Below are positions 31,089 to 42,073 of a stretch of DNA of 64,000 nucleotides, in pieces. The notes under the pieces were generated by a model. The model did no database searches and was not told the origin of the DNA. It worked only from the letters and a program-made list of their open reading frames with translations. The translations under genes were made by a program, and so were the position numbers. This DNA is from a virus. The stretch lies in IMG/VR virus record IMGVR_UViG_3300013108_000188; one strand, given 5' to 3'. Within the stretch, counting starts at the first letter, position 1; each line of letters starts with the position of its first letter.

Positions 31089-31845
31089 AGCTTATATACT
31101 CCAAATTTCTACAATCTTCCCATTCAGGAATTTTGATATTTAAATAACTTTTTCTATTTACTTTATAAAACTTAATATGATGATACCATCTAAACAATTT
31201 TTTCCATTGCAATATCCAATTCTGTATATAGTAATTACTAGGGTGTGTATCTGATTTATAGAAAGGTTGTCCTTTATATACATTATTAAATCCTGTACCC
31301 ATACTATAGAAGTCGTGTCCAATTAAATATACTTCTTTCATATTATTAATCGTCTTACAAGCAACATAACCACTTGCAGGACCAGTTGCCCAACCAGTTT
31401 GTTCTGGATCCTTTATTATGTCTGTCAAATTATAGACATAATCTTTTGTACACCAACTTACACATACCATATTCTTTCCAGTTTCTTTATCATTATATCC
31501 GTGTAATACAAATTCATTTGAACCTGCTCTACTATTTTCTATTAGATGACCAGACTTTCTTATTGCTCTTAAATGTCTATAGTCAGGAAAGAAACCTGTT
31601 ATCATATTCTCAAAATTTTCTTGTGGTATTTTCATCCAATCTCTAAAATAACATTTAGCAGTATAAGAATAACCAGAGTTATAAATGTGGTGCATAACTG
31701 GATGGTCAGTTGCAACTAATATATCTGGTGCAAAATCTTTATAAAGAAAATTACAACCTACTATTACTCCACGAGATTTTAAATTTTTTAAATTAAAACC
31801 TTTTCTACTTTGACCGTTGCCAATACAAAATGCTCTATTTCCCAT
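31051..31845 (-). CDS. Glycosyltransferase-like Rossmann protein (DUF115/MAF/sialyltransferase-like)
   Basis: AFCIGNGQSR, IVGCNFLY..F.PDILVATD, WATGPA, EVYLIGHDF. Start reassigned to MGNRAF (31845). Confidence 0.6.
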   Translation of the reverse strand: MGNRAFCIGNGQSRKGFNLKNLKSRGVIVGCNFLYKDFAPDILVATDHPVMHHIYNSGYSYTAKCYFRDWMKIPQENFENMITGFFPDYRHLRAIRKSGHLIENSRAGSNEFVLHGYNDKETGKNMVCVSWCTKDYVYNLTDIIKDPEQTGWATGPASGYVACKTINNMKEVYLIGHDFYSMGTGFNNVYKGQPFYKSDTHPSNYYIQNWILQWKKLFRWYHHIKFYKVNRKSYLNIKIPEWEDCRNLEYISYERMENQTRSLP

Positions 31846-32809
31846 ATTTAAATTCATAAGTATCCAATAGATACCTATATCCATTACAACCATTATCTAA
31901 ATCTTTTACATATTGATAATGTTCTGTTAAACAATGTCCTAGATATTCACATTTTTTACATATAGGAGATATTGTTTTTTCTTTTTCTTTTATACACCAA
32001 TCTTCGTATTCTTTAAAACTATCTAATTCTAAAAAGTATTCTCTATCATCTTTATCAAATTCTAATACAGCAAACTTACCGTTTGGTGTAATATATAAAT
32101 GGTCATCGCTAAATGCGTTGTATTCTTTATTTAAAGAAGCAATTACTTTCTTTTTATTTACAAATTCATATTCACCTTTCTTACTACTAGGTTCCTGTAC
32201 TAATAATTCTAAAACATAATCTTCAAATTGTGCGTGGGTTACTCCTTGGTCATTTGCTTGATTAGCACTATAAGGTTTTAATTCTACACTTTTAAAATGA
32301 GATTTGCCATTATTTGCTTTTGCAGATTCAAAGTCAATTCTATTAAACATAGTCCACCAATGTTCTTTAGAGTGAGACATTACTTCTTTTGTTCCTAAAC
32401 ATAATACAGAAAAGTCAACTGGCAGTTTTGCCATATTTTCTCTAACTTTATGATAGTCTTGTCTAGTTTCTATATCCCAACTAACACTTAAATAATAATC
32501 AGGATAAAAAAATTCTTCTCTTAATACAGAAAGGTTTGTGTTGATATTGATTTTATCTTTATAATATAATCTAATAACTTCTGTTATATTCTTTAATTGT
32601 TCTTTCTTTAATATACCAATCTCACCACCATATAAATCAATATGATTAATTTCTCTATGAGCAGAAACTTCTGCTAGTAATTCATTTAATCTTTCATCAC
32701 TTATAGTTTTAGTATCACCTAATTGCTCAGGTGTAAGATAACACCAAGAACATCTAAAATTACAATGATAAGATGGATTAATTGATAAATTAATTTTCTG
32801 CTTCGTCAT
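31835..32809 (-). CDS. Radical SAM enzyme with C-terminal Cys cluster (SPASM/twitch-like)
   Basis: CNFRCSWC (CxxxCxxC), YGGE, NTNL, C-terminal CKKCEYLGHC...GC. Confidence 0.9.
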   Translation of the reverse strand: MTKQKINLSINPSYHCNFRCSWCYLTPEQLGDTKTISDERLNELLAEVSAHREINHIDLYGGEIGILKKEQLKNITEVIRLYYKDKININTNLSVLREEFFYPDYYLSVSWDIETRQDYHKVRENMAKLPVDFSVLCLGTKEVMSHSKEHWWTMFNRIDFESAKANNGKSHFKSVELKPYSANQANDQGVTHAQFEDYVLELLVQEPSSKKGEYEFVNKKKVIASLNKEYNAFSDDHLYITPNGKFAVLEFDKDDREYFLELDSFKEYEDWCIKEKEKTISPICKKCEYLGHCLTEHYQYVKDLDNGCNGYRYLLDTYEFKYGK

Positions 32810-32894
32810 AATCTAAATCCTCAAATAATGGAGTAATACCGTATACTTCTTTTTCCATCTGTTGTATAAATTTAAAAAAATCTAATTCACTCAT
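32790..32894 (-). CDS. Small acidic peptide (34 aa)
   Basis: Manual translation MSELDFFKFIQQMEKEVYGITPLFEDLDYDEAEN; ATGA overlap with the upstream stop; fills the only gap in the cluster. Confidence 0.55.
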   Translation of the reverse strand: MSELDFFKFIQQMEKEVYGITPLFEDLDYDEAEN

Positions 32895-33412
32895 ATGTTA
32901 TAATCAAAATATCCTGTTATTCGTTCAACACCTATTGGTCTAAAAGCACCAACTTTGTGTTCCCATTGTTTTTTGTGGTTCAATATTATAATATCTGTCT
33001 TGCCTGGGTACAAGTATGCAGATAAACTTTTTGTAATAGCACTTCTTACTTCTAATTGTCCTCCTGTATCAGGATTACTTGCAGAAGTAAAATAGATAAG
33101 AGCAGCTATATTAGCTCCTTCTTTATTATCATTATGCCATTTCAAAGAACCTTTGTCTACTCCATTAATAATTTCTGGTTGTCCCCATAAAGTATAATTG
33201 TTAGACAATTGTTTAATATATTTATCACCCAAATAAGTATGGCACATTTTGAGAGCATTCTCAACTTCTGGAGTATGTATTGCTACTTTGTAACCTTCTA
33301 TTTCTTTAAATGGTATTTCAACACCTTCAAAAAATCTAAATGGCATTGGATCCGCTGTAGGCCAAACTCCATTAATTAAAACATTTTCTATATTGGAACC
33401 ACTTCTCATCAT
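32891..33412 (-). CDS. 2OG-Fe(II) oxygenase
   Basis: WHND, ALIYF, GGQLE, WEHKV, RITGYF. Confidence 0.8.
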   Translation of the reverse strand: MMRSGSNIENVLINGVWPTADPMPFRFFEGVEIPFKEIEGYKVAIHTPEVENALKMCHTYLGDKYIKQLSNNYTLWGQPEIINGVDKGSLKWHNDNKEGANIAALIYFTSASNPDTGGQLEVRSAITKSLSAYLYPGKTDIIILNHKKQWEHKVGAFRPIGVERITGYFDYNI

Positions 33413-34497
33413 CGTGCCTCGCTTATGTACGGTGTCATTTGTAAAGTACTTCCATTTGCTTTTAGTATATCAGGTCCTATTCGTTTCATCTTCTCACAAT
33501 GTTTCTCTATTGTTCCAGCGTGTTGATAATCTTTTATTGTCTTTCTACAACCATTACATATATTAAACATTGGACAAGTAAAACATCCTTGTTTCATACT
33601 ATTTAATGAAAGGTCATCTTGTAATGGTGTAAAAAATTCACCTTTCATTTCTCTTTTAAAATCTATTTCTTTATCTCTATCATCACCAAAAGCACCACAA
33701 CTATAATAGTCTCCATCGGGTTGCAAACATCTTATACCTTCATCACACTTTCTACTTAAAGGACAAGTCGTACTACAATCACTAATAGTCAACATCATTT
33801 GTTTCGTATTAAATTCCCAAGGTGCTAAACCTAGATTATATATTTTAGTATATATCTCATATATATCTGATAATAAAAATGGTTCTTTTTGCTCACCACT
33901 CATCATTGCATAGTTTAATTTACATTCAACACCTGTCTTTTCTTCTCTATATAAATTATGTAAAGTACCTTTTGGCTCGTTATCTTCTGACATAAACTTT
34001 GCTAACTCAACATTTTTAATTGCGTTGTGTTCGTTCTCTCTTGTTATAACAGAAATAAAGTCTGGTCTATAATCACAATACTTTAACATTGCGTCTGAAC
34101 ATTGCCAAAAGTCGTCTTCTGTAAATTCTGAATAGTCTCCTTTTAATCTTCCACCACCATATTGAAAAGAAGTGGTTACTCCTATTCTTTTATCATTAAA
34201 CAAGTCTACCCACAAACTAGGTTTCTTTAAGAACGGCCATAAGTTTGTTGTTAAAGAAATTGATGTTGCATAGTCTCTTTCATCTAACCATCTAATAATC
34301 TTCCAATAGTATTCAGGTTCCATCATTAAAGGATCCCCACCATTTACTATAATAGTTTTAGTATGAGGAAATCTTGTTAAGAACTCAAATATTTGTTCGT
34401 GTTTTAACCAATTCTTTTTCTCTTTTGTTAATTGAGTACTTGAACAAAATGAACATTTGAAATTACATAATTCAGTAGGTTTAATTATTAAATCCAT
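33409..34497 (-). CDS. Radical SAM/SPASM enzyme
   Basis: IKPTELCNFKCSFC, NGGDPL, TTNL; CPLSRKC...YSCG and CFTCPMFNICNGC...HC. Start taken at MDLIIK (34497). Confidence 0.92.
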   Translation of the reverse strand: MDLIIKPTELCNFKCSFCSSTQLTKEKKNWLKHEQIFEFLTRFPHTKTIIVNGGDPLMMEPEYYWKIIRWLDERDYATSISLTTNLWPFLKKPSLWVDLFNDKRIGVTTSFQYGGGRLKGDYSEFTEDDFWQCSDAMLKYCDYRPDFISVITRENEHNAIKNVELAKFMSEDNEPKGTLHNLYREEKTGVECKLNYAMMSGEQKEPFLLSDIYEIYTKIYNLGLAPWEFNTKQMMLTISDCSTTCPLSRKCDEGIRCLQPDGDYYSCGAFGDDRDKEIDFKREMKGEFFTPLQDDLSLNSMKQGCFTCPMFNICNGCRKTIKDYQHAGTIEKHCEKMKRIGPDILKANGSTLQMTPYISEAR

Positions 34498-35066
34498 ATT
34501 GGTTCTGTCTTTGGTTGGTCTTTTACTTGCCATCCTAATACTAAAGATGTTCTAGGATTTTCTCCGAAGTATGGTTTAACTCTATGTACTAAAAACCCAG
34601 GAAACATTATAAATCTATTAGGCACAGGATTAATGTTTATTGTATTATAAGGATATTCAGCAAAAGTTAGATTTTTATATATACTTAATTCACCACCTAC
34701 CCATTTTTCAGGTGTATAATCACTTTCTATATAATAGATTGCAGAAATAAAAGCACCTTCAACTTGGTCGTGGTGTGGTTCATATAAATGATTGGTCACA
34801 CTAGACTTATCATACTTCTTTAATCTACCTTTTTGAAAATTAGATAACTCTAAATTATTATAGTCTATATTATTTGAGGCACAATAATTTAATAGTGTTG
34901 CATTTGCAATCTTACCAAATTCATTTTGAGAATAAGTAAGATTAAATGTATCTTGTCCTTTAATTGTACTATCAATTTTACTTTCATCTTTTAACCAACC
35001 AATCAATTCTTTATCAGTTAAAAAATCATCAATTACATTTATTGTATCTGTAAATTTAATTTCCAT
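34488..35066 (-). CDS. 2OG-Fe(II) oxygenase (prolyl-hydroxylase-like)
   Basis: PHHD, SAIYY, GGEL, NRFIMFPGFLVHRV, RTSLV. Confidence 0.85.
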   Translation of the reverse strand: MEIKFTDTINVIDDFLTDKELIGWLKDESKIDSTIKGQDTFNLTYSQNEFGKIANATLLNYCASNNIDYNNLELSNFQKGRLKKYDKSSVTNHLYEPHHDQVEGAFISAIYYIESDYTPEKWVGGELSIYKNLTFAEYPYNTININPVPNRFIMFPGFLVHRVKPYFGENPRTSLVLGWQVKDQPKTEPIWI

Positions 35067-35652
35067 ATAATTTAATCCAATCTAAACCAGTTGTAGTATC
35101 TTTATCTCTAATCCAAAAGTGTTCATATATTACATCTTTATGAAAACCAAATTGTTGCATTATCTCTCTATGATATGGTTCCTTTTGTGCTTTCATTTGA
35201 TTCATAGATAAGTGTAAGTAATCAAAATAAGTACCAGAAGGACATAATATTCTTCTATCTTTAAATATATTAATTGTTTCACACCACATTGTTCTTATTA
35301 AGTGTCTTCTTTCTACTGGACTTTTACTTCTCATATAACCAGGATACTTTAAAGACCCTACTATAACATAATCATCATAGATATGAAACATACCTACACC
35401 TTTTATAAAAGTATTAGGTGTTTTATTATGTACCCACATCTTTTCACCTATATTCTTTTCTGCTAGATTATAAGTTTCAATATCTTCTTCTTTCTTACCT
35501 AACCATAAAAATAAATGTGCTTGTCTGCCATCTATTCTAGGTATAAATGGTCTTTGAATTGGAAACTCATCTAATTGTATTTCAATGTCTGTATTATTAA
35601 TTTTAAGTTTTGAAATATCAGGTTGCGACAAAGTTTCTTTGTATTCGTACAT
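35056..35652 (-). CDS. Hypothetical protein in the radical SAM cluster
   Basis: ORF overlapping both neighbours; no family recognised; start MYEYK assumed. Confidence 0.6.
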   Translation of the reverse strand: MYEYKETLSQPDISKLKINNTDIEIQLDEFPIQRPFIPRIDGRQAHLFLWLGKKEEDIETYNLAEKNIGEKMWVHNKTPNTFIKGVGMFHIYDDYVIVGSLKYPGYMRSKSPVERRHLIRTMWCETINIFKDRRILCPSGTYFDYLHLSMNQMKAQKEPYHREIMQQFGFHKDVIYEHFWIRDKDTTTGLDWIKLYGN

Positions 35653-36670
35653 CTTCAATATATCTGTGCGTAAGTTTGTAAACACATTCATCCAATTCTT
35701 CCCTCCATTTATAATCGTGGTTCATAAAGCATCCTAAAGTACATCTATCTAAAAATTCACAACTAGCACAATTATATTTTTCTAAAAATTTATTTTCAAT
35801 AATTGAATTGTCCTTTTTCTTTATAGGTGAGCTATACATTACTAAATCTTTTGGGTCCTGTACAAGATTACCACATTGACATAATGTATTATCTTGTAAT
35901 ATTAATTTACTTGTTCTACAACTAGCATAATTTCTTTTGTTAAATATCCATTCTCTTACAGGAGAACATTGTGGATAGTTATCTATTATATACTTAAAAA
36001 ACTTAAATAATTCTGTATCACTTGGCATAAAATATTTTGCGTGTTGGTCTGGTGTATAATAATCAAAGTAAATCTCATAACCTTCATTATATAAATGTTT
36101 GAAGTATGGGTCGCCTTCTTCTAAATGATATTTTATCATTGGTTTAGTTATTAACATTGAAAAAGATTTTATTTCTTTTCCCCAATAGATTACTTGTTGT
36201 TTAAATCGTTCTAAATCTTTTTTATTAAATCTGCCTCTCGGGTCATAACTTGTAGTAATTGTTGCTTCAATACCTTCGTGTTCGGACCAACTTAATAAAT
36301 CTCTTAATAAGTCATTACCTTCATCACTCATAATCAAATTAGTAACCCAATTAATTCTAACTTTCTTCTCATAGTGTTCGCATATCTTTTGTATGCCTTT
36401 TGATAAAGTTTTATATGCTTGATTTAATTCTTTGTTATAGATTGCAGGTGCAAAGACTTCACCACCCATAATATTAAATACAACCTTCATCATCATTTCG
36501 GATTTGATAAATTTTTCTACAGGAACTATTTTATTGATTACGGTATCTATTCCAACCGTGTCATCGTGGTTTTGCCAACAGAAAGCACATCTTAAATTAC
36601 AAAATTCAAATAAATGAATTGTGTACTCTTGTTCTGGATCTCTTTTGGGGTCTATTAAAAACTCTCGCAT
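35618..36670 (-). CDS. Radical SAM/SPASM-like enzyme
   Basis: HLFEFCNLRCAFC, MGGE, VTNL, TSYDP.GRF; C-terminal SC...CQCG and CASCEFLDRCTLGC...EC. Confidence 0.9.
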   Translation of the reverse strand: MREFLIDPKRDPEQEYTIHLFEFCNLRCAFCWQNHDDTVGIDTVINKIVPVEKFIKSEMMMKVVFNIMGGEVFAPAIYNKELNQAYKTLSKGIQKICEHYEKKVRINWVTNLIMSDEGNDLLRDLLSWSEHEGIEATITTSYDPRGRFNKKDLERFKQQVIYWGKEIKSFSMLITKPMIKYHLEEGDPYFKHLYNEGYEIYFDYYTPDQHAKYFMPSDTELFKFFKYIIDNYPQCSPVREWIFNKRNYASCRTSKLILQDNTLCQCGNLVQDPKDLVMYSSPIKKKDNSIIENKFLEKYNCASCEFLDRCTLGCFMNHDYKWREELDECVYKLTHRYIEDVRIQRNFVAT

Positions 36671-36678
36671 TTAAACTC

Positions 36679-37794
36679 CTATGAGTTTGCGAATAGTCTG
36701 TATTTTCCTAGTGTATCTGAATCATTATCTTTCTTTAAAGAAAGAAGATATTGAATAAATGAGTAATTAACATTACCAACATCAAATCTTGGAATATACG
36801 CCAAAGATGGACTATTCGTCACCGCTTCATTAATTATTGTATCAAAATCACTTTTAGACAAAGAAGTATTACACGCCTTGTCAAAGTGTGCCATTGAATA
36901 ATCTGGATTTGGGATATTTTGTAAAGTTTGTATTGTAGTAATTAAATTTTTTAATGCAGTTTGTTTTTCACTTGACAAATTATCTATTGTTATTGTATTC
37001 ACATATCCAGCATTTGCAACAGGTCTAGCAGTAAAAACTTCTTCATCAGCAAAGGCAGACAATTCTGAAATTCCTTCAAAAGGATTATCAGCATTTATTA
37101 CAACATCACTTTCAGAATAACCTACAGCAGTTTGTTGCGACCTATTTAAAAGATTTAATAAAGTATCTTCTCTAACATCTGTTAGTATTTCTTTATAAAA
37201 TCTTTGTAAGAACATATGATAAGAAGAAAGTAAATTATCTTCGTGTGTATCAGCACCAGCAAAATACTCTCCAAGCAATAATTCAATTGAGAAATTTAAA
37301 TTAAGCGCTTTGATTCTATCTAATTCTAAAGTAGGTAAAACATCAGCATATCCTTTAACATTTCCTAAACCTGCATTTAGTTTAGTTAAGTCTAAAATAT
37401 GTGTTGGTTGGCATTGTGTATTTGCAATAATTCTTTCGTTGTGTAAATGTATGTCTAGGTATTTAACAATACTATCACTATCGCCAAAAGGTAAAATAGT
37501 TTTTAACCATATAACAGATAATTCTAAAAATGCTTGTGTATCACAATATATAACAACTTTACTATTCAATGATTTTTGTTTCTGACATACATCTTCAAAG
37601 AAACCAGTTAAGTCATCAAACTTACCTGTCATTTCATTTCTATTTTTAGCATAGTTAATTAGTGTGCCTCTATAAGCATTACCTAATTCTGATAACATTG
37701 GATTTCCTTTTTCTTCGGAAATAACATATCTATGTGTATGACAATCTATTGAATCGTCAAATTGTAAATAAACTTTATTAAACAGGTGTAGCAT
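36679..37794 (-). CDS. Hypothetical protein (371 aa) in the radical SAM cluster
   Basis: Long ORF coupled to its neighbours; no family recognised. Confidence 0.7.
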   Translation of the reverse strand: MLHLFNKVYLQFDDSIDCHTHRYVISEEKGNPMLSELGNAYRGTLINYAKNRNEMTGKFDDLTGFFEDVCQKQKSLNSKVVIYCDTQAFLELSVIWLKTILPFGDSDSIVKYLDIHLHNERIIANTQCQPTHILDLTKLNAGLGNVKGYADVLPTLELDRIKALNLNFSIELLLGEYFAGADTHEDNLLSSYHMFLQRFYKEILTDVREDTLLNLLNRSQQTAVGYSESDVVINADNPFEGISELSAFADEEVFTARPVANAGYVNTITIDNLSSEKQTALKNLITTIQTLQNIPNPDYSMAHFDKACNTSLSKSDFDTIINEAVTNSPSLAYIPRFDVGNVNYSFIQYLLSLKKDNDSDTLGKYRLFANS

Positions 37795-38470
37795 TTAAGT
37801 TTCCTATATCTTCTTTTTTAGCTTGGTTATATTTTTTAATATCAAATTTACCTTCGGCAACTGCCCAAGTCATCAAAAACATAGGGTTTTCTTTTACACC
37901 CCAATAATCAAATAGACTTTTGCCTTTAAACATATATTCTGTAAAGTATTTAGTATAGTATCTAACATTCTTTTCGTTAGATTTATTATAATAAAAATAA
38001 AAATCTTTATGTTTCAATAGACTAACAAAGTTAATACCTTTTACATCATTACTATCGTCTTTAGGATAACTATCAACAAAGTCTTTAAAAGCACCTTCTC
38101 CTATGATAGACATATTATATAAAGGTAGACTTTCTAATTTGTTTGCCCATTGTTCTATTATTTCTAAATTTTGAGAAATAAAAGCACCGTGAACTACATT
38201 TTTTATTAAACCTTTATGTTCAAAAAGAACTTGCATAGCAACTCTTTCTAACATCGGTATATTTACTAACATTTGTGTTTCAAAATATGCTAATAGTAAT
38301 TCATCATCATAGTTTGATATATCGCAAGGTATATCTAAATTGCTTATATAAGTTAAGAACTGAGCACCTTTTAATTTACTCTTTTCATAATCTATATTAT
38401 AAGTTTCAGTTTTATCTTCAAAATATTTTTTTAAATTTTTCAATTCAATTGGTACTATAGTTTCAATCAT
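37778..38470 (-). CDS. Hypothetical protein in the radical SAM cluster
   Basis: TAATG coupling to the stop of the CHSS-repeat gene gives start MIETIV (38470). Confidence 0.7.
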   Translation of the reverse strand: MIETIVPIELKNLKKYFEDKTETYNIDYEKSKLKGAQFLTYISNLDIPCDISNYDDELLLAYFETQMLVNIPMLERVAMQVLFEHKGLIKNVVHGAFISQNLEIIEQWANKLESLPLYNMSIIGEGAFKDFVDSYPKDDSNDVKGINFVSLLKHKDFYFYYNKSNEKNVRYYTKYFTEYMFKGKSLFDYWGVKENPMFLMTWAVAEGKFDIKKYNQAKKEDIGNLNATPV

Positions 38471-39252
38471 TATCTTCTGCTCCTGCTTCCGTGGCAACTA
38501 GAGTGGCAACTTGAATGGCAAATAGTTTTTGTCAATGTATAAGTTGTTCCTCTTTCAGTATTATATGTGTTTGCAAGTGTGGACATATAGCTCTCTAAAC
38601 TATTTGAACTAGCAACCGCTCCTGTTGTTAATGACGCAGGTTGCGAAATAGTTGGACTTGTTCTTTGTGCTGTTGGTAAGTGTGCAATTTGTGTATCTGA
38701 ATATTGTTGACCAGCGCCTGTCATATTTACAACAGCATTACAATTTTTAATATTAGTGTAAAGCAACATTTCTTGTTTTAATGTATTGTAGATATTGAAA
38801 GCGTGAATATTGGTTCCTGTTGAACCTATAGTAGTACCTACGATACCAATACTAACTGCTGATATTTCTGTCATTGTTGAAATTGTTCCTGTTGCACCAG
38901 AATTAGTTCCTGATAAAATATCATTTTGTAAAAAATTCGTTTGTCCAGAACCTGGAGTTATTTGTTTTGCTTTTAATGTACCTGTAGATGAATCCCAAGA
39001 TACAACCGTTCCTACCGTATTTGAAATAGAACCTGTAACCGTTTCGCCAACGGAATAATTAGTAGCACTTACATTAGTTAATACTAAAGACATACCATCT
39101 ACCACTCCACCAAAATCTGAAGTAGTAAATGCTGAGTGTCCTGGTAAAGAATCTGTTCCCCATACTATATTAGTATCAGCAACATCTGTTACCAATTCTT
39201 CAAATCTATCTACAATGTTTTGTGCCGTTATCGGACTTGTTAATGTTACCAT
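38470..39252 (-). CDS. Virion-like protein with C-terminal CHSS repeat; candidate radical SAM substrate
   Basis: T/S/G-rich; internal YSVGETVTGSISNTVGTVVSWDS module resembling gp7/gp8; ends TICHSSCHSSCHGSRSRR. Confidence 0.75.
   Translation of the reverse strand: MVTLTSPITAQNIVDRFEELVTDVADTNIVWGTDSLPGHSAFTTSDFGGVVDGMSLVLTNVSATNYSVGETVTGSISNTVGTVVSWDSSTGTLKAKQITPGSGQTNFLQNDILSGTNSGATGTISTMTEISAVSIGIVGTTIGSTGTNIHAFNIYNTLKQEMLLYTNIKNCNAVVNMTGAGQQYSDTQIAHLPTAQRTSPTISQPASLTTGAVASSNSLESYMSTLANTYNTERGTTYTLTKTICHSSCHSSCHGSRSRR
38491..38520 (-). repeat. 12-nt-period coding repeat encoding CHSSCHSSCH
   Basis: The + strand reads gtggcaactaga gtggcaacttga atggca. Confidence 0.85.
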
Positions 39253-40280
39253 ATTGCCTCACTTTTATTTTGCGCCAAATGTTTCATAAGTGATTTCGGA
39301 GCACCACATATATCACCTTGCCATCCTAATTGGTGACAATCTCCACCACAATACTTGAAAACTGGACACTCCCAACACAATGGGTTTCTTGCCACTTCAC
39401 ACGCTATATTGTGTAATCGCTTAGGACTATTTATAAGACCATCCAAAGGGTCATCTAAAGTGCCAAAAGTGAATTCAGGAGCAGCATTAGGGCAACCACC
39501 TATCGTTCCAGTTGCGTTGAGTGTAAATAGTTTTTGTTCACAATCTCTACAGAAGGTTCCTTGCGTATTATCTCCAGCAGTAAACTTTGAGTAAATAGTT
39601 TCAAAAAATTCATTTTCAAACCACTTTCTAGCTTTGTATTGTTTCATCTGCTCGTGCATTTTCAAAAACCACTTATCTTGTTCAATATTTGTTGGGAAAA
39701 TTTCAGGATGTAAGTTTGCATTACCATTACCTGTCAATCTTTCAAGTGCCATTTCTTGTACGCCTAAATCTTTTACCCATTTCAATAATTCAATAGGTTC
39801 AATTCTAACCGTATCTTTGGTTACTGATATAAAAAGTTTAACGGTTACTCCTTCATCAATTAAAGTAGCAACATTTCTTTTCCATAAATTAAATTGTTTT
39901 TCATTTGCAAAACGAATATTAGGATCCCAACTAGTACCACATCTATTTCCTAGTGGACCTTTCATAAAGTCTATATGTTCATCTTTTAGTTTAAAAACTA
40001 AATTAGTGGTTACACCATAAGATTGGTTGTTCCACAATCCTTTAGTTGCGTCATAGACATATTGCATTTCAGATACAGGAACCAAAAATGGTTCACCACC
40101 GTGAAATTCTAAATGTGCTGTGTCGTTTTTGTGATAGTTAAATTTGCGAAAAGAATTGAACCACTTGATAATCTTATCTGTATTCCAATATACTTTAGGT
40201 CCAGATGTTCCAGAAGTGAAACAATGTTTGCAATTTAAATTACAGGTTTCGGTTGTTTTAACATAAAACATCCAATTCAT
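39246..40280 (-). CDS. Radical SAM/SPASM enzyme
   Basis: VKTTETCNLNCKHC, FHGGEPFL, TTNL, TSWDP.IRF; SPASM-like CRDC...GGCPN and CWECPVFKYCGGDC...C. Start MNWMFY (40280). Confidence 0.93.
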   Translation of the reverse strand: MNWMFYVKTTETCNLNCKHCFTSGTSGPKVYWNTDKIIKWFNSFRKFNYHKNDTAHLEFHGGEPFLVPVSEMQYVYDATKGLWNNQSYGVTTNLVFKLKDEHIDFMKGPLGNRCGTSWDPNIRFANEKQFNLWKRNVATLIDEGVTVKLFISVTKDTVRIEPIELLKWVKDLGVQEMALERLTGNGNANLHPEIFPTNIEQDKWFLKMHEQMKQYKARKWFENEFFETIYSKFTAGDNTQGTFCRDCEQKLFTLNATGTIGGCPNAAPEFTFGTLDDPLDGLINSPKRLHNIACEVARNPLCWECPVFKYCGGDCHQLGWQGDICGAPKSLMKHLAQNKSEAIW

Positions 40281-40282
40281 TA

Positions 40283-40762
40283 TTATATAACTCCAATACT
40301 TAACCCCCAAGTATCAGCTTCACTTTCAACAAAATGTTGAACACCTTTCTCTATGATAATTCCTTCATCATCATATATAGGTTTAACCTCGTTATTCATA
40401 TTTACTTTCTTTTTGCCTTTTACAACATATAGGTAAACATCTTTGTCATCACAATGAGGTTTGAAACTTACACCTGGTTTTTGATTCACAAATAAATGAA
40501 TATCTTGTCTCTCTTTTCCTGTGATATTCTTTACTACTTCATCTAAAACTTCTCTTAACCAAGCAACATCTTCTAAACCTTCCACCTTAATAACTTTAAA
40601 TCTATTAAATTCTCTTAACCATTCTCCATAAGTCATATGTTCTTTGACTTCTCGGTCTCTACCTTCTTCGTCAATATAGAATAATTGTCTTGCTTCGTAT
40701 CTGTTATGATTTTGGATTTCGTCTTTTAATCGTTTAATCCATAATTGAGTTTGTTCGTCCAT
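40283..40762 (-). CDS. Cupin/JmjC-like protein
   Basis: SFKPHCDDKDVYLYVVKGKK and IEKGVQHFV (HxD...H double-stranded beta-helix). Confidence 0.75.
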   Translation of the reverse strand: MDEQTQLWIKRLKDEIQNHNRYEARQLFYIDEEGRDREVKEHMTYGEWLREFNRFKVIKVEGLEDVAWLREVLDEVVKNITGKERQDIHLFVNQKPGVSFKPHCDDKDVYLYVVKGKKKVNMNNEVKPIYDDEGIIIEKGVQHFVESEADTWGLSIGVI

Positions 40763-40771
40763 TATATACTC

Positions 40772-42073
40772 CTATTTACCAACAACTATTTCAACTAATC
40801 TCTCTCCTGTTGAGTCGTCATTGACTAAAGATTTTCCAATTAATGCACCTTGTCTTGGTTCTGCTTCTGCTCTTCCACAACCTTCTTGTTCACAACTAAC
40901 AATCATATCGCCTTTTTTTACAGGTCCACATACTCTACAAGGAACTCTTCCTGTTAATGCAACAGCGACAGACATTCCTTCTAAACTTCCGTTCATTATG
41001 AAAGCAGGTTTTTCTGATACAACACCTACAACTTTTGTACAATGATTTATTTTACAAGAAGTTACCTCAGCAGGTCCACCTATACATAATACCGTTCCTG
41101 TAGGATATTCTTTATCAGTTAAATATTTTTCTGCCAAGTCAGCATAGTTTGCTTTTGTAGCAGTTGTTGTTAATGTATTTGTTGATGGATTGTAATATAA
41201 ATCTGTATCTGTATTTAATCCTTGATTACCAGTTGCGTTAGCAGAAAAAGTAATATATCTTGTTGCGTTTGTTGAGTTGTCAGCAGTAATATTAACAGCG
41301 TTTGCTTGTGAAGCAGTACCAGTTATAGTAGTTGCAACTAAAGTATCTACCGTCAATGTTGAAGTTGCCATATCTTTTAATTTAGCAACCGATACCGAAG
41401 CGTCAGCAATTTGGTCTGTACTAATAGCGTCATTGGCTATCATTGTTTGAGTAACCGTATTTGTATCGCCTGTTGTGATTACGGTTCCACTTCTATCTGG
41501 TAAAGTAATTGTATTATCTTGTCCTGGGTCATCAACTCTTAATGTAGTTTCATTAGCGTTAGAAGTTGCACCTTCAAATTTCATTGAAGCACCATTGATG
41601 GTAACACCAGCACCTACTACCGTTCCACCAGCAGTTATTCCACCAGTTGTATTTAATTGTTCGTTTCCAAAATCTATTGTACCACTTGAAGATACAATTG
41701 AACCATTTGAAATAGTTATATCTCCAATATCAGCAGAAGTATTAACATCTATAGTTGTTAAACTTGATAGATTAGCATCCATATTAATTGTTAATGTATC
41801 TGGTGATGATACGATAGCTTCTAAATTTGTACCAGTACTTACGGTCAATGTGTTACCAGAAGCAACCGCCTGATTGTTTGTACCATCTGTTAATGTGAAA
41901 CCAGCAGCGGCAATAGCGATTGCGTTAATTTCATTTACAGCACCTATAACCGTAGTTGCTGACAATGAACTATCTAGTGTTGCAATGTCTCCGAAGTCGT
42001 TTAAAGCAAGAGCGTTAAATTCCGTTCTTAACTTATCTAAACTATCTGTTGTTGAAACTTGTCTAACTGCCAT
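40772..42073 (-). CDS. Tail fibre protein with C-terminal chaperone/peptidase-G2-like domain
   Basis: TDSLDKLRTEFN start, T/S-rich shaft, YADLAEKY...VVGVVSEKPAFIMN...VALTGRVPC..GPVKKGD. Confidence 0.7.
   Translation of the reverse strand: MAVRQVSTTDSLDKLRTEFNALALNDFGDIATLDSSLSATTVIGAVNEINAIAIAAAGFTLTDGTNNQAVASGNTLTVSTGTNLEAIVSSPDTLTINMDANLSSLTTIDVNTSADIGDITISNGSIVSSSGTIDFGNEQLNTTGGITAGGTVVGAGVTINGASMKFEGATSNANETTLRVDDPGQDNTITLPDRSGTVITTGDTNTVTQTMIANDAISTDQIADASVSVAKLKDMATSTLTVDTLVATTITGTASQANAVNITADNSTNATRYITFSANATGNQGLNTDTDLYYNPSTNTLTTTATKANYADLAEKYLTDKEYPTGTVLCIGGPAEVTSCKINHCTKVVGVVSEKPAFIMNGSLEGMSVAVALTGRVPCRVCGPVKKGDMIVSCEQEGCGRAEAEPRQGALIGKSLVNDDSTGERLVEIVVGK

What the first reader, a model, noticed from the sequence alone, without database searches (positions are those of the whole stretch)
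38470..39252. Baseplate-type protein carrying a precursor-like Cys-His-Ser-Ser repeat tail
Seen: the 260-aa protein contains YSVGETVTGSISNTVGTVVSWDSSTGTL, closely matching gp7 (YAAGETVTGSNSSATGVVVSWDSNRKLL) and similar segments in gp8 and the 2034-aa protein. It then ends abruptly in three CH units at 4-residue spacing followed by a basic GSRSRR. It lies directly downstream of the first radical SAM gene. Inference: a RiPP-like core fused to a virion scaffold. HSS echoes His-Xaa-Ser repeat substrates, while the Cys residues allow thioether crosslinks or metal binding (for example an iron-carrying tip).
Basis: partly seen in the sequence, partly recalled or inferred. Interest (0 to 1): 0.85.

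Follow-up and report, generated by a model that had tools for sequence, protein, structure and literature searches.

The report
Radical-SAM-linked Cys-His tail on virion protein
A 260-residue late protein of a marine T4-like phage ends in a near-invariant (Cys-His-x-Ser)x3-Arg-x-Arg-Arg tail that always travels with the same four radical SAM enzymes in large phages and predatory bacteria, so the tail is probably modified chemically by a pathway I found in no paper.

Summary
The ORF is real, but on the minus strand (39252..38470). It ends in ICHSSCHSSCHGSRSRR. The motif occurs once in the window and is not expected by chance.

The tail is strongly conserved. It closes 664 protein clusters in a 1.84-billion-protein library, and it was C-terminal in all of the 150 best-scoring rows listed. 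Both serine and both arginine codon families are used, so selection acts on the protein. Only the last ~55 residues (helix, strand, tail) are shared; the bodies differ.

In 58 of 58 mid-size or long relatives, a radical SAM/SPASM gene lies directly upstream. Thirteen of 15 other contigs carry 5-8 radical SAM genes elsewhere. All six cultured phages examined that have this enzyme have the tail gene next to it. Four orthologous radical SAM genes, a JmjC-like oxygenase and an orphan 230-residue protein are conserved alongside it, also in Bdellovibrionota chromosomes.

The Atu_ph07 protein with this tail (gp170) was found in purified virions.

Best reading (0.55): the tail is a substrate of these enzymes on a fibre or baseplate accessory protein. 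No modification has been shown. The "baseplate" similarity is an inserted 80-residue domain, shared only with the 851-residue protein.

This scan has noted the same cassette many times on other DNA. One earlier check reported that "part of it fell", without saying which part.

The parts
38470..39252 (-). Gene of the 260-aa Cys-His-tailed protein (P0001); stop codon at 38470-38472
   Evidence: ORF and translation. 306 homologues. AF2 model with pLDDT 90.6, tail poorly ordered.
38473..38520 (-). 16-codon tail C-H-S-S-C-H-S-S-C-H-G-S-R-S-R-R (residues 245-260)
   Evidence: Unique in the window. Near-invariant in relatives, with mixed codon usage.
38473..38640 (-). Portable C-terminal module, residues ~205-260: amphipathic helix (216-234), beta-strand (237-244), then the tail
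   Evidence: hhalign of A1 against the 127-aa tandem family A4 aligns only these 55 columns (prob 98.8, E 6e-17). A profile of this module finds 664 clusters, and the match was C-terminal in all 150 listed rows.
38857..39099 (-). Inserted ~80-aa beta-barrel domain (residues ~52-132), absent from the 177-199-aa relatives in alignment A1
   Evidence: Alignment A1. Similarity to the 851-aa ORF residues 516-593. Fold matches to phage baseplate and tail chains, best Z 7.9. Many cyanophage virion proteins in BFVD.
39246..40280 (-). rSAM1: radical SAM/SPASM enzyme (344 aa from the ATG), directly upstream and overlapping the tail-protein start by 7 nt
   Evidence: Hits to Pfam Radical_SAM and NCBIfam SPASM TIGR04085 (28.1 bits, cut-off 27). 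C13/C17/C20 and eight C-terminal Cys are invariant in 55 sequences. phrog_1802.
40283..40762 (-). Small cupin / JmjC-like Fe(II)-2OG oxygenase candidate (159 aa)
   Evidence: Weak Cupin_2 and JmjC_2 hits. H103, D105, K118 and H143 are invariant in 35 orthologues. The Bdellovibrionota orthologue passes the Pfam JmjC_2 cut-off.
37778..38470 (-). Orphan 230-aa protein ('p239'), translationally coupled (TAATG) to the tail gene; phrog_20767
   Evidence: A homologue was seen downstream of the tail gene in most phage and Bdellovibrionota loci inspected. AF2 pLDDT 90.9 with no fold match (best Z 4.2; atlas TM < 0.4).
36679..37794 (-). Orphan 371-aa protein, often conserved in the cassette
   Evidence: No Pfam, NCBIfam or PHROG hit. 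tblastn hits in related loci.
35618..36670 (-). rSAM2 (350 aa)
   Evidence: One clean orthologue per cassette in phages and Bdellovibrionota.
34488..35066 (-). 2OG-Fe(II) oxygenase (192 aa)
   Evidence: Pfam 2OG-FeII_Oxy_3, 33.1 bits, above the cut-off of 27.
33409..34533 (-). rSAM3 (374 aa, SPASM-like), the best conserved of the four
   Evidence: 51-61% identity, also in Bdellovibrionota.
32891..33412 (-). 173-aa protein; a Bdellovibrionota counterpart is a 2OG-Fe(II) oxygenase
   Evidence: tblastn 30% identity to L160:16481-16999, which hits 2OG-FeII_Oxy_3 at 31.8 bits.
31835..32809 (-). rSAM4 (324 aa)
   Evidence: phrog_1802 E 7.5e-33. CxxxCxxC near the N-terminus. Orthologues in every cassette examined.
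40772..42073 (-). 433-aa fibre-like protein. Its C-terminal domain precedes the cassette in most related phages, and directly precedes the tandem 127-aa tail proteins
   Evidence: PHROG 'tail fiber protein' hits for the C-terminal part. Positions in related loci.

Best explanation
The 260-aa protein is a late, virion-associated accessory protein of the baseplate/fibre module. Its last ~55 residues form a portable module (helix, strand, flexible 16-residue tail). The tail, (C-H-x-S)x3-R-x-R-R, is the substrate of the co-encoded maturation cassette.

Proposed steps, all inferred:
1. The anSME-like minimal radical SAM/SPASM enzyme encoded directly upstream (rSAM1) binds the exposed tail.
2. By 5'-deoxyadenosyl-radical H-abstraction it installs covalent changes within the C-H-x-S units. 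Candidates are Cys thioether links, a His-to-Ser three-residue cyclophane, or Cys oxidation. The chemistry is not resolved.
3. The three other orthologous radical SAM enzymes and the JmjC-like and 2OG oxygenases add further steps, for example His or Arg hydroxylation.
4. The matured protein is then built into the particle, where the rigid Cys/His cap anchors it covalently or through a metal.

Shown: conservation of the tail, the gene linkage, and virion presence of a relative carrying the same tail. Inferred: that the tail is the substrate, the chemistry, and the role in the particle.
For: 1. Conservation at protein level. Every complete homologue listed, down to ~40% identity, keeps the tail; the only departures are single substitutions in two of them (P0103, P0054). 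There are 119 distinct 51-nt versions, with AGY and TCN Ser codons and AGR and CGN Arg codons all in use. A profile of the module finds 664 clusters at E<=1e-3 in 1.84 billion representatives, and the match ends at the C-terminus in all 150 best. 134 of 146 new representatives are canonical; Cys and His are kept in all 12 variants, which change mostly at Ser positions.

2. Linkage. 58 of 58 relatives of 170-309 aa with enough upstream DNA have a radical SAM gene directly upstream. Of 15 contigs without an adjacent radical SAM gene, 13 carry 5-8 such genes elsewhere, and the other two are fragments of 18 and 36 kb. In the reverse direction, all six cultured phages examined that have an rSAM1 homologue (RSL2, Atu_ph07, Phosso, SURPRISE13, pPa_SNUABM_DT01, RsoM3USA) have the tail gene directly downstream, on bodies with no detectable sequence similarity to the window's.

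3. Co-conserved enzymes. Four radical SAM orthologue groups occur one-to-one in marine, Ralstonia and Agrobacterium phages and in Bdellovibrionota chromosomes.

4. rSAM1 has the full peptide/protein-maturase equipment. CxxxCxxC and the SPASM Cys set are invariant. The SPASM model is over its cut-off. Among solved structures, anSME is the listed match that aligns over nearly the whole length, and CteB matches the N-terminal part.

5. Accessibility. The tail follows the last strand of a confident fold and is itself poorly ordered (pLDDT ~52).

6. Motif logic. H and S are near-invariant and x varies, as in His-Xaa-Ser and three-residue cyclophane motifs. A bacterial protein with HxS repeats is matured by radical SAM enzymes (PMC13128918).

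7. Virion presence. Atu_ph07 Gp170 (31.89 kDa, the same mass as P0123) was found in purified virions with 8 unique peptides and 35% coverage, and was most abundant in gel band 1 although it is small. Gp165, 168, 169, 171 and 172 are not in the rows 143-197 of that table that I read.

8. Gene coupling. The gene overlaps rSAM1 by 7 nt and the orphan 230-aa gene by 1 nt.
Against: No modification has been observed anywhere. The linkage is equally what one would see if enzymes and tail protein merely serve the same structure.

Cys3His3 is a classical metal-binding composition and needs no enzyme.

I recognised no RRE/PqqD-type recognition domain in the cassette.

In the tandem 127-aa arrangement, the radical SAM genes lie several kb or more from the tail genes.

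rSAM1 to rSAM4 score far below the cut-off of every curated maturase family, so no chemistry can be transferred.

The Atu_ph07 loading buffer as printed lists no reducing agent. Gp170's only three Cys are in the tail. The band-1 signal may therefore be simple disulfide bonding, which would imply free thiols.

Virion presence is known for a relative carrying the tail, not for this protein.

An earlier check in this scan of the same claim on other DNA was marked 'part of it fell', without detail.
Confidence: 0.55

Rival explanations
1. The tail is an unmodified Cys/His metal-binding or disulfide-forming clasp on a virion accessory protein. It would work like the metal sites on the axes of phage fibres and spikes. 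The radical SAM and oxygenase genes would act on something else in the same structure, such as the neighbouring fibre protein or a glycan.
For: The tail has three Cys and three His at i, i+4 spacing, with a short helix predicted in the tail. There are no other conserved Cys or His in the family. In the tandem 127-aa form the tail genes follow a fibre-like gene, with the radical SAM genes several kb or more away. Gp170 of Atu_ph07 runs at the top of a gel whose printed buffer lacks a reductant, as disulfide-linked tails would. From my own knowledge of the literature: T4 gp37 and gp12, P2 gpV and PAAR proteins bind Fe or Zn through His/Cys.
Against: It does not explain the near-invariant Ser after each C-H-x, nor the fixed R-x-R-R end. 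It does not explain why the rSAM1 gene sits directly upstream in 58 of 58 cases and in all six cultured phages examined. It does not explain why the same set travels together into Bdellovibrionota chromosomes. No other conserved candidate substrate motif was seen in the cassette proteins of the window.
Confidence: 0.25
2. The ~55-aa module is a docking or sorting tag rather than the site of chemistry. It would recruit the protein to the enzymes, which modify the body or a partner, or to its place on the fibre or baseplate, much like C-terminal sorting signals.
For: The module sits on bodies without detectable sequence similarity and always at the extreme C-terminus. It ends in a basic R-x-R-R. 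A translationally coupled orphan protein could be its receptor.
Against: Tags rarely keep twelve near-invariant residues of a repeated chemical motif. The bodies share no conserved residues that could be a common substrate.
Confidence: 0.1
3. The tail is the precursor of a small peptide-derived cofactor or metallophore, as PqqA is for PQQ and MftA for mycofactocin. It would be cut off after modification, with the folded body acting only as carrier.
For: An invariant short core, several radical SAM enzymes and oxygenases are typical of peptide-derived cofactor pathways (my own knowledge of PQQ and mycofactocin). The cassette also exists outside phages, in Bdellovibrionota chromosomes.
Against: I recognised no peptidase or exporter in the window's cassette. 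The carrier is a well-folded, conserved protein that is found in virions. The cassette lies in fibre/baseplate modules or next to a fibre-type gene.
Confidence: 0.07

Closest known systems
HXS antiphage system (HxsA with HxsB/HxsC/HxsD; TIGR03976-03979; Li et al., Nat Commun 2026, PMC13128918)
   Same: A folded protein, not a short peptide, carries His-x-Ser units rich in basic residues and is matured by more than one radical SAM enzyme plus a small partner protein. A mass change was mapped to an S-H-R-S-S unit.
   Different: Here each unit begins with an invariant Cys, there are exactly three units, and they sit at the extreme C-terminus. No signal peptide or peptidoglycan-binding domain was found. 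The enzymes score 32-36 bits against HxsB and HxsC, whose cut-offs are 370 and 268. There are four radical SAM enzymes plus oxygenases. The system is encoded by phages in virion modules, not by a bacterial defence locus.
Anaerobic sulfatase-maturating enzyme (anSME; TIGR03942; PDB 4K36-4K39)
   Same: A minimal ~350-370-aa radical SAM/SPASM enzyme with no recognised N-terminal recognition domain, acting on a Cys (or Ser) of a full-size protein. It is the solved relative listed that aligns over nearly the whole of rSAM1. The last unit, C-H-x-S-R, has the Arg at +4 of the sulfatase motif.
   Different: 39.7 bits against a cut-off of 349. The sulfatase motif needs Pro or Ala at +2; here that position is mostly Gly, Ser or Thr. 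The substrate is not a sulfatase.
Triceptides (three-residue cyclophane RiPPs made by radical SAM/SPASM 3-CyFEs; my own knowledge of Nguyen 2020 and Sugiyama 2022)
   Same: The repeated aromatic-x-x units that these enzymes cross-link include His-containing motifs. H-x-S with a variable x fits the pattern.
   Different: The enzymes are not members of the YhhB, FxsB, GrrM or AmcB models (19-29 bits against cut-offs of 310-445). The substrate is a protein tail with interleaved invariant Cys. No leader peptide or peptidase was recognised.
Thioether systems: PapB/freyrasin, CteB/SCIFF, QhpD/QhpC
   Same: SPASM enzymes that link repeated Cys to nearby residues. QhpD does so on a protein subunit that stays in the final assembly. 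CteB is among the nearest solved relatives.
   Different: Scores are far below the cut-offs (PapB 35.3 against 340; SCIFF maturase 23.4 against 425). The acceptor residues (Asp/Glu/Thr) are absent from the tail.
Metal sites of phage fibres and spikes (T4 gp37 His-x-His iron sites, gp12 zinc, gp5.4 PAAR; my own knowledge)
   Same: Short His/Cys motifs at the ends of virion host-contact proteins.
   Different: Those need no dedicated enzymes. No fold or sequence relation to them was found here.

Membership tests
Radical SAM/SPASM maturase (the enzyme upstream, rSAM1) | CxxxCxxC motif for the SAM-binding 4Fe-4S cluster | tested here: met
   C13, C17 and C20 are invariant in 55 orthologues. Pfam Radical_SAM hit at 23 bits, below the cut-off of 29.5. 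phrog_1802 E 2.5e-65.
Radical SAM/SPASM maturase (the enzyme upstream, rSAM1) | C-terminal SPASM Cys set for auxiliary clusters | tested here: met
   TIGR04085 scores 28.1 bits, cut-off 27. C244, C247, C263, C302, C305, C311, C315 and C325 are invariant.
RiPP system in the strict sense | Precursor with a recognition sequence and a core that is released by a peptidase | tested here: inconclusive
   A conserved helix-strand precedes the tail. However, no peptidase or RRE domain was recognised in the cassette, and a tail-bearing relative stays in virions as a protein.
HXS system | HxsB and HxsC equivalog scores (TIGR03978 at least 370 bits, TIGR03977 at least 267.9 bits) | tested here: not met
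   rSAM1 scores 35.9 bits against HxsB. rSAM3 scores 32.1 bits against HxsC.
HXS system | [quoted passage not shown] | tested here: not met
   No Pfam or NCBIfam domain on P0001. The units are C-H-x-S and lie at the C-terminus.
Anaerobic sulfatase-maturating enzyme | TIGR03942 equivalog score of at least 349 bits | tested here: not met
   39.7 bits. A near full-length but weak match to PDB 4k37, E 2e-7 with the family profile.
Anaerobic sulfatase-maturating enzyme | Substrate motif (C/S)-x-(P/A)-x-R | tested here: inconclusive
   The last unit is C-H-x-S-R, with Arg at +4. Position +2 is Gly 56, Ser 32 and Thr 24 of 119.
Triceptide (three-residue cyclophane) systems | Repeated aromatic-x-x motif in the substrate | tested here: met
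   H-x-S occurs three times. H is invariant, S near-invariant and x variable.
Triceptide (three-residue cyclophane) systems | Enzyme belongs to a curated 3-CyFE model (YhhB, FxsB, GrrM/OscB, AmcB) | tested here: not met
   19-29 bits against cut-offs of 310-445.
Ranthipeptide / SCIFF thioether systems | PapB or SCIFF maturase model score | tested here: not met
   PapB 35.3 against 340. TIGR03974 23.4 against 425.
JmjC / Fe(II)-2OG oxygenase (the 159-aa cupin) | HxD...H iron triad and 2OG-binding Lys | tested here: met
   H103, D105, H143 and K118 are invariant in 35 orthologues. That K118 binds 2OG is my inference.
JmjC / Fe(II)-2OG oxygenase (the 159-aa cupin) | Pfam JmjC_2 gathering score (22 bits) | tested here: inconclusive
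   The window protein scores 17.1 bits. The Bdellovibrionota orthologue scores 32.3 bits.
Virion structural protein | Detected in purified particles | not testable with these tools
   Known only for Atu_ph07 Gp170, which shares the tail module (PMC6102473 Table S5). The window's phage is uncultured.

The most novel reading that the evidence does not exclude
The cassette is a general, undescribed maturation pathway for host-contact organelles. Four radical SAM enzymes and iron oxygenases would turn the (C-H-x-S)x3 tail into a new kind of cross-linked, possibly metal-chelating Cys/His cap. That cap would fasten a small protein covalently onto attack fibres.
Probability: 0.2. Interest if true: 0.9.

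Novelty: new variant of a known kind. Interest (0 to 1): 0.76.

Why it matters
Radical SAM maturases are known from small peptide natural products and from a few cellular proteins. Enzymatic radical chemistry on a virus-particle protein is not described in any paper I could find.

Here a fixed 16-residue tail, four conserved radical SAM enzymes and iron oxygenases recur in hundreds of large phages. These include cultivable phages of Agrobacterium, Ralstonia, Burkholderia, Sinorhizobium and Pseudomonas. The set also recurs in predatory bacteria next to a fibre-type gene.

The question is therefore directly testable by mass spectrometry on one co-expressed pair. The answer could reveal new cross-link chemistry, a new step in virion assembly, and a shared piece of machinery for attaching to prey cells.

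Tried and rejected
1. Complex prediction of rSAM1 (alignment A3) with residues 200-260 of the tail protein, three 4Fe-4S clusters and SAM gave no verdict. The score was 0.02 against a mark of 0.32, and the controls were not run. It counts neither for nor against binding.

2. tblastn of the last 71 residues, and of a 188-aa relative, against GenBank phages found nothing. This is probably because of the low-complexity filter and divergent bodies. The tail genes in cultured phages were found through the enzyme instead.

3. Fold searches of the P0001 model against PDB were filled by the inserted domain, so the core fold remains untested against solved structures. BFVD gave two ~175-aa uncharacterised phage proteins and, weakly, Atu_ph07 gp170.

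4. The orphan 230-aa protein had no sequence match in PDB, no Atlas feature hit and no fold match (best Z 4.2, atlas TM below 0.4). I could not show that it is a recognition partner.

5. phmmer of rSAM1 alone against PDB found nothing. Only the family profile reached solved maturases.

6. Literature searches for the cassette, for the motif strings, and for radical SAM with phage fibre or virion terms found no description. Genome papers only list the genes.

7. Membership in the HXS, anSME, triceptide, PapB/SCIFF or darobactin/dynobactin families was rejected, because every curated score is about ten-fold below its cut-off.

8. A DNA or RNA-level explanation of the conservation was rejected because of the codon diversity.

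9. I could not learn which part of the earlier, similar claim 'fell'.
Full report
**1. What is there.**

The finding's coordinates hold one ORF, on the minus strand (39252 to 38470, 260 aa). It ends ...TKTICHSSCHSSCHGSRSRR. Three C-H-x-x units in a row occur once in the six frames of the window. None occurred in 200 shuffled windows.

The window is the structural module of a T4-like marine phage, with all genes on the minus strand. Upstream lie baseplate wedge genes: phrog_219, 438 and 677, an 851-aa virion/baseplate protein, and a 2034-aa protein (phrog_358) whose relatives in related loci carry DUF4815.

The order in the direction of transcription is:
- a 433-aa fibre-like protein
- a 159-aa cupin
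- radical SAM/SPASM enzyme rSAM1
- the tail protein
- an orphan 230-aa protein
- an orphan 371-aa protein
- rSAM2
- a 211-aa orphan
- a 2OG-Fe(II) oxygenase
- rSAM3
- a 173-aa protein
- rSAM4

The tail gene's ATG overlaps the end of rSAM1 by 7 nt. Its TAA overlaps the ATG of the next gene by 1 nt.

**2. The observation.**

The tail and its position are as described. The similarity to "gp7" is real, but it concerns an inserted domain. Residues ~52-135 match residues 516-593 of the 851-aa protein (blastp E 8e-9, profile E 6.5e-9).

The claimed similarity to gp8 and to the 2034-aa protein did not pass either test. Alignment with 71 relatives shows that the family core is ~180-190 aa. This lineage carries an extra ~80 residues.

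The AF2 model is confident (pLDDT 90.6) except for the tail (~52). The insert is a small beta-barrel of a kind seen in phage baseplate and tail proteins (best Z 7.9, rmsd 2.3 over 72 residues). It also resembles many cyanophage virion proteins in BFVD.

**3. Conservation of the tail.**

Among the homologues found by whole-protein similarity, every complete one keeps the tail, down to ~40% identity. The only departures are single substitutions in two of them, P0103 and P0054.

In 121 distinct proteins, two positions that my pattern left free were still nearly fixed: Ser at -5 in 115 and Gly at -3 in 112.

The 119 distinct nucleotide versions use both Cys and both His codons about equally. They use AGY and TCN for each conserved Ser, and AGR and CGN for Arg. 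Selection is therefore on the protein.

A profile of the last 56 residues found 664 clusters (E<=1e-3) and 229 (E<=1e-10) among 1.84 billion representatives. The match ended at the last residue in all 150 listed. Of 146 new representatives, 134 were canonical and 143 had exactly three units. Cys and His are kept in all 12 variants, which change mostly at Ser positions.

The motif is hydrophobic-C-H-x-S-C-H-x-S-C-H-x-S-R-(G/S)-R-R-stop, with x variable. Rare variants have four units, or many units with NVV spacers.

**4. A portable module.**

Profile-profile comparison of this family with the ~127-aa tandem family aligns only the last 55 columns (probability 98.8, E 6e-17). The same tail closes proteins with no detectable sequence similarity to the window's in:
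- Ralstonia phage RSL2 (186 aa)
- Agrobacterium phage Atu_ph07 (296 aa)
- Sinorhizobium phage Phosso (306 aa)
- Pseudomonas phage pPa_SNUABM_DT01 (178 aa)

A few representatives are 436-533 aa long.

**5. Linkage to the enzymes.**

In IMG/VR loci with enough upstream DNA, 58 of 58 proteins of 170-309 aa have a radical SAM gene directly upstream. A homologue of the 230-aa orphan usually lies downstream.

The ~127-aa proteins come as tandem pairs directly after a gene with the C-terminal domain of the 433-aa fibre-like protein. Of 15 such or otherwise non-adjacent contigs, 13 carry 5-8 radical SAM genes elsewhere. The two without are fragments of 18 and 36 kb.

In the reverse direction, rSAM1 homologues occur in 15 GenBank phage records. 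In all six phages examined, the tail gene follows directly.

Each cassette examined has one clean orthologue of each of rSAM1 to rSAM4. This holds for a marine phage, RSL2, Atu_ph07, other IMG/VR contigs and two Bdellovibrionota genomes.

**6. Outside phages.**

In one genome per 185,579 species, the pattern gave 27 stretches. About 17 are in Bdellovibrionota MAGs. Most of the rest are marine bins whose contigs look like phage.

On a 1.29-Mb Halobacteriovoraceae contig, the tail gene, the 230-aa orphan, rSAM1 to rSAM4, two 2OG oxygenases and a JmjC_2 cupin (32.3 bits, over the cut-off) form one cluster. A GT8-like protein and a 408-aa protein with a Peptidase_S74 fibre-chaperone domain belong to it too.

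The cluster lies between acyl-CoA dehydrogenase and serine dehydratase on one side and Mrp/NUBPL, SLT, YchF and a PBP on the other. So the set is an autonomous unit that again sits beside a fibre-type gene. These are MAGs, so assembly or binning errors cannot be excluded.

**7. The enzymes.**

rSAM1 has invariant C13/C17/C20 and the full SPASM Cys set. It passes the SPASM domain model.

With its family profile, it reaches 8vpo, CteB and anSME among solved structures. anSME is the match listed that aligns over nearly the whole length. All curated maturase families score about ten-fold under their cut-offs. The family is therefore new at that level, and no chemistry can be transferred.

The cupin keeps H103, D105, K118 and H143 in 35 orthologues. 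This is the iron triad of JmjC-type oxygenases. From my own knowledge, Pfam JmjC_2 includes ribosomal-protein Arg and His hydroxylases. The tail's invariant residues include three His and three Arg.

The 230-aa orphan folds confidently (pLDDT 90.9) but matches nothing known.

**8. Virion evidence.**

In the Atu_ph07 paper (PMC6102473, Table S5), Gp170 is listed among proteins of PEG-purified particles. It has 8 unique peptides, 35% coverage and a mass of 31.89 kDa, and was found in bands 1-9 with the maximum in band 1. The protein I translated from the gene after the radical SAM gene weighs 31.89 kDa.

In the rows I read, covering Gp143 to Gp197, the radical SAM proteins, the cupin and the orphan's homologue (gp165, 168, 169, 171, 172) do not appear.

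There is a caveat of my own. The loading buffer as printed contains no reducing agent, and Gp170's only Cys are the three in the tail. The high-mass signal may therefore be disulfide bonding rather than an enzyme-made link.

**9. Reading.**

The most economical explanation is that the tail is the substrate of the cassette, on a fibre or baseplate accessory protein (confidence 0.55). Shown are the conservation, the linkage, the enzyme equipment, and virion presence of a relative with the same tail. Inferred are the enzyme-substrate relation, the chemistry and the role in the particle.

The chemistry could be a Cys thioether, a His-Ser cyclophane or Cys oxidation, with hydroxylation by the oxygenases. 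The role in the particle could be a rigid cap, a covalent anchor or a metal site.

The main rival is an unmodified Cys/His metal or disulfide clasp, with the enzymes acting elsewhere in the same structure (0.25). A docking tag (0.10) and a peptide-derived cofactor precursor (0.07) are less likely.

**10. Known relatives and novelty.**

It works most like protein-level radical SAM maturation: HXS (PMC13128918), anSME and QhpD/QhpC. It is a member of none of them. I found no paper describing the cassette or the motif.

Earlier notes of this scan describe the same cassette on many other genomes and reached similar readings. I derived the points above from my own calls before reading them. One earlier check is marked "part of it fell" without detail, which is one reason for my moderate confidence.

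Noticed in passing
window 38473-38490 (minus strand): The purine-rich Arg/Ser codons of the tail end (AGC AGG AGC AGA AGA TAA) contain AGGAG 9 nt before the overlapping ATG of the next gene. Across relatives AGA and GGA dominate at these positions. The tail's codon choice may therefore double as the ribosome-binding site of the coupled downstream gene.
   Followed up: partly
L148:3907-4266 (Dysosmobacter segnis contig) and L119:8345-8512 (IMG/VR contig); L149, L153: There are variant tails with four C-H-x-S units, or with many units broken by NVV/NVPV spacers, still ending in ARGRR or SRGRR. The number of units is not absolutely fixed.
   Followed up: partly
L160:9765-10991 (Halobacteriovoraceae MAG, 1.29-Mb contig): A 408-aa protein with a Peptidase_S74 (endosialidase-chaperone, fibre-type) domain lies at the edge of the chromosomal copy of the cassette in a predatory bacterium.
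   Followed up: partly
L136 (contig binned as 'Rickettsiales bacterium MED606'): This contig carries the whole cassette at 66-81% protein identity to the window (one orphan, p211, only 46%), including the 257-aa long form of the tail protein. It is probably a phage contig placed in a bacterial bin, or a hint at the host group.
   Followed up: no
window 40772-42073 and loci L007, L023, L031 and others: The C-terminal domain of the 433-aa fibre-like protein lies upstream of the cassette in most related phages. It directly precedes the tandem 127-aa tail proteins, the position where fibre chaperone or adhesin genes usually lie.
   Followed up: partly
proteins P0025, P0030, P0031: Some database homologues end in strings such as VSYTHLRAHET or LSLIHI instead of the tail. 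These look like translated sequencing-adaptor chimeras, not tail-less natural variants.
   Followed up: no
window 32891-33412: The 173-aa orphan has a Bdellovibrionota counterpart that passes the Pfam 2OG-FeII_Oxy_3 cut-off. The cassette probably holds one more oxygenase than the domain scans of the window show.
   Followed up: partly
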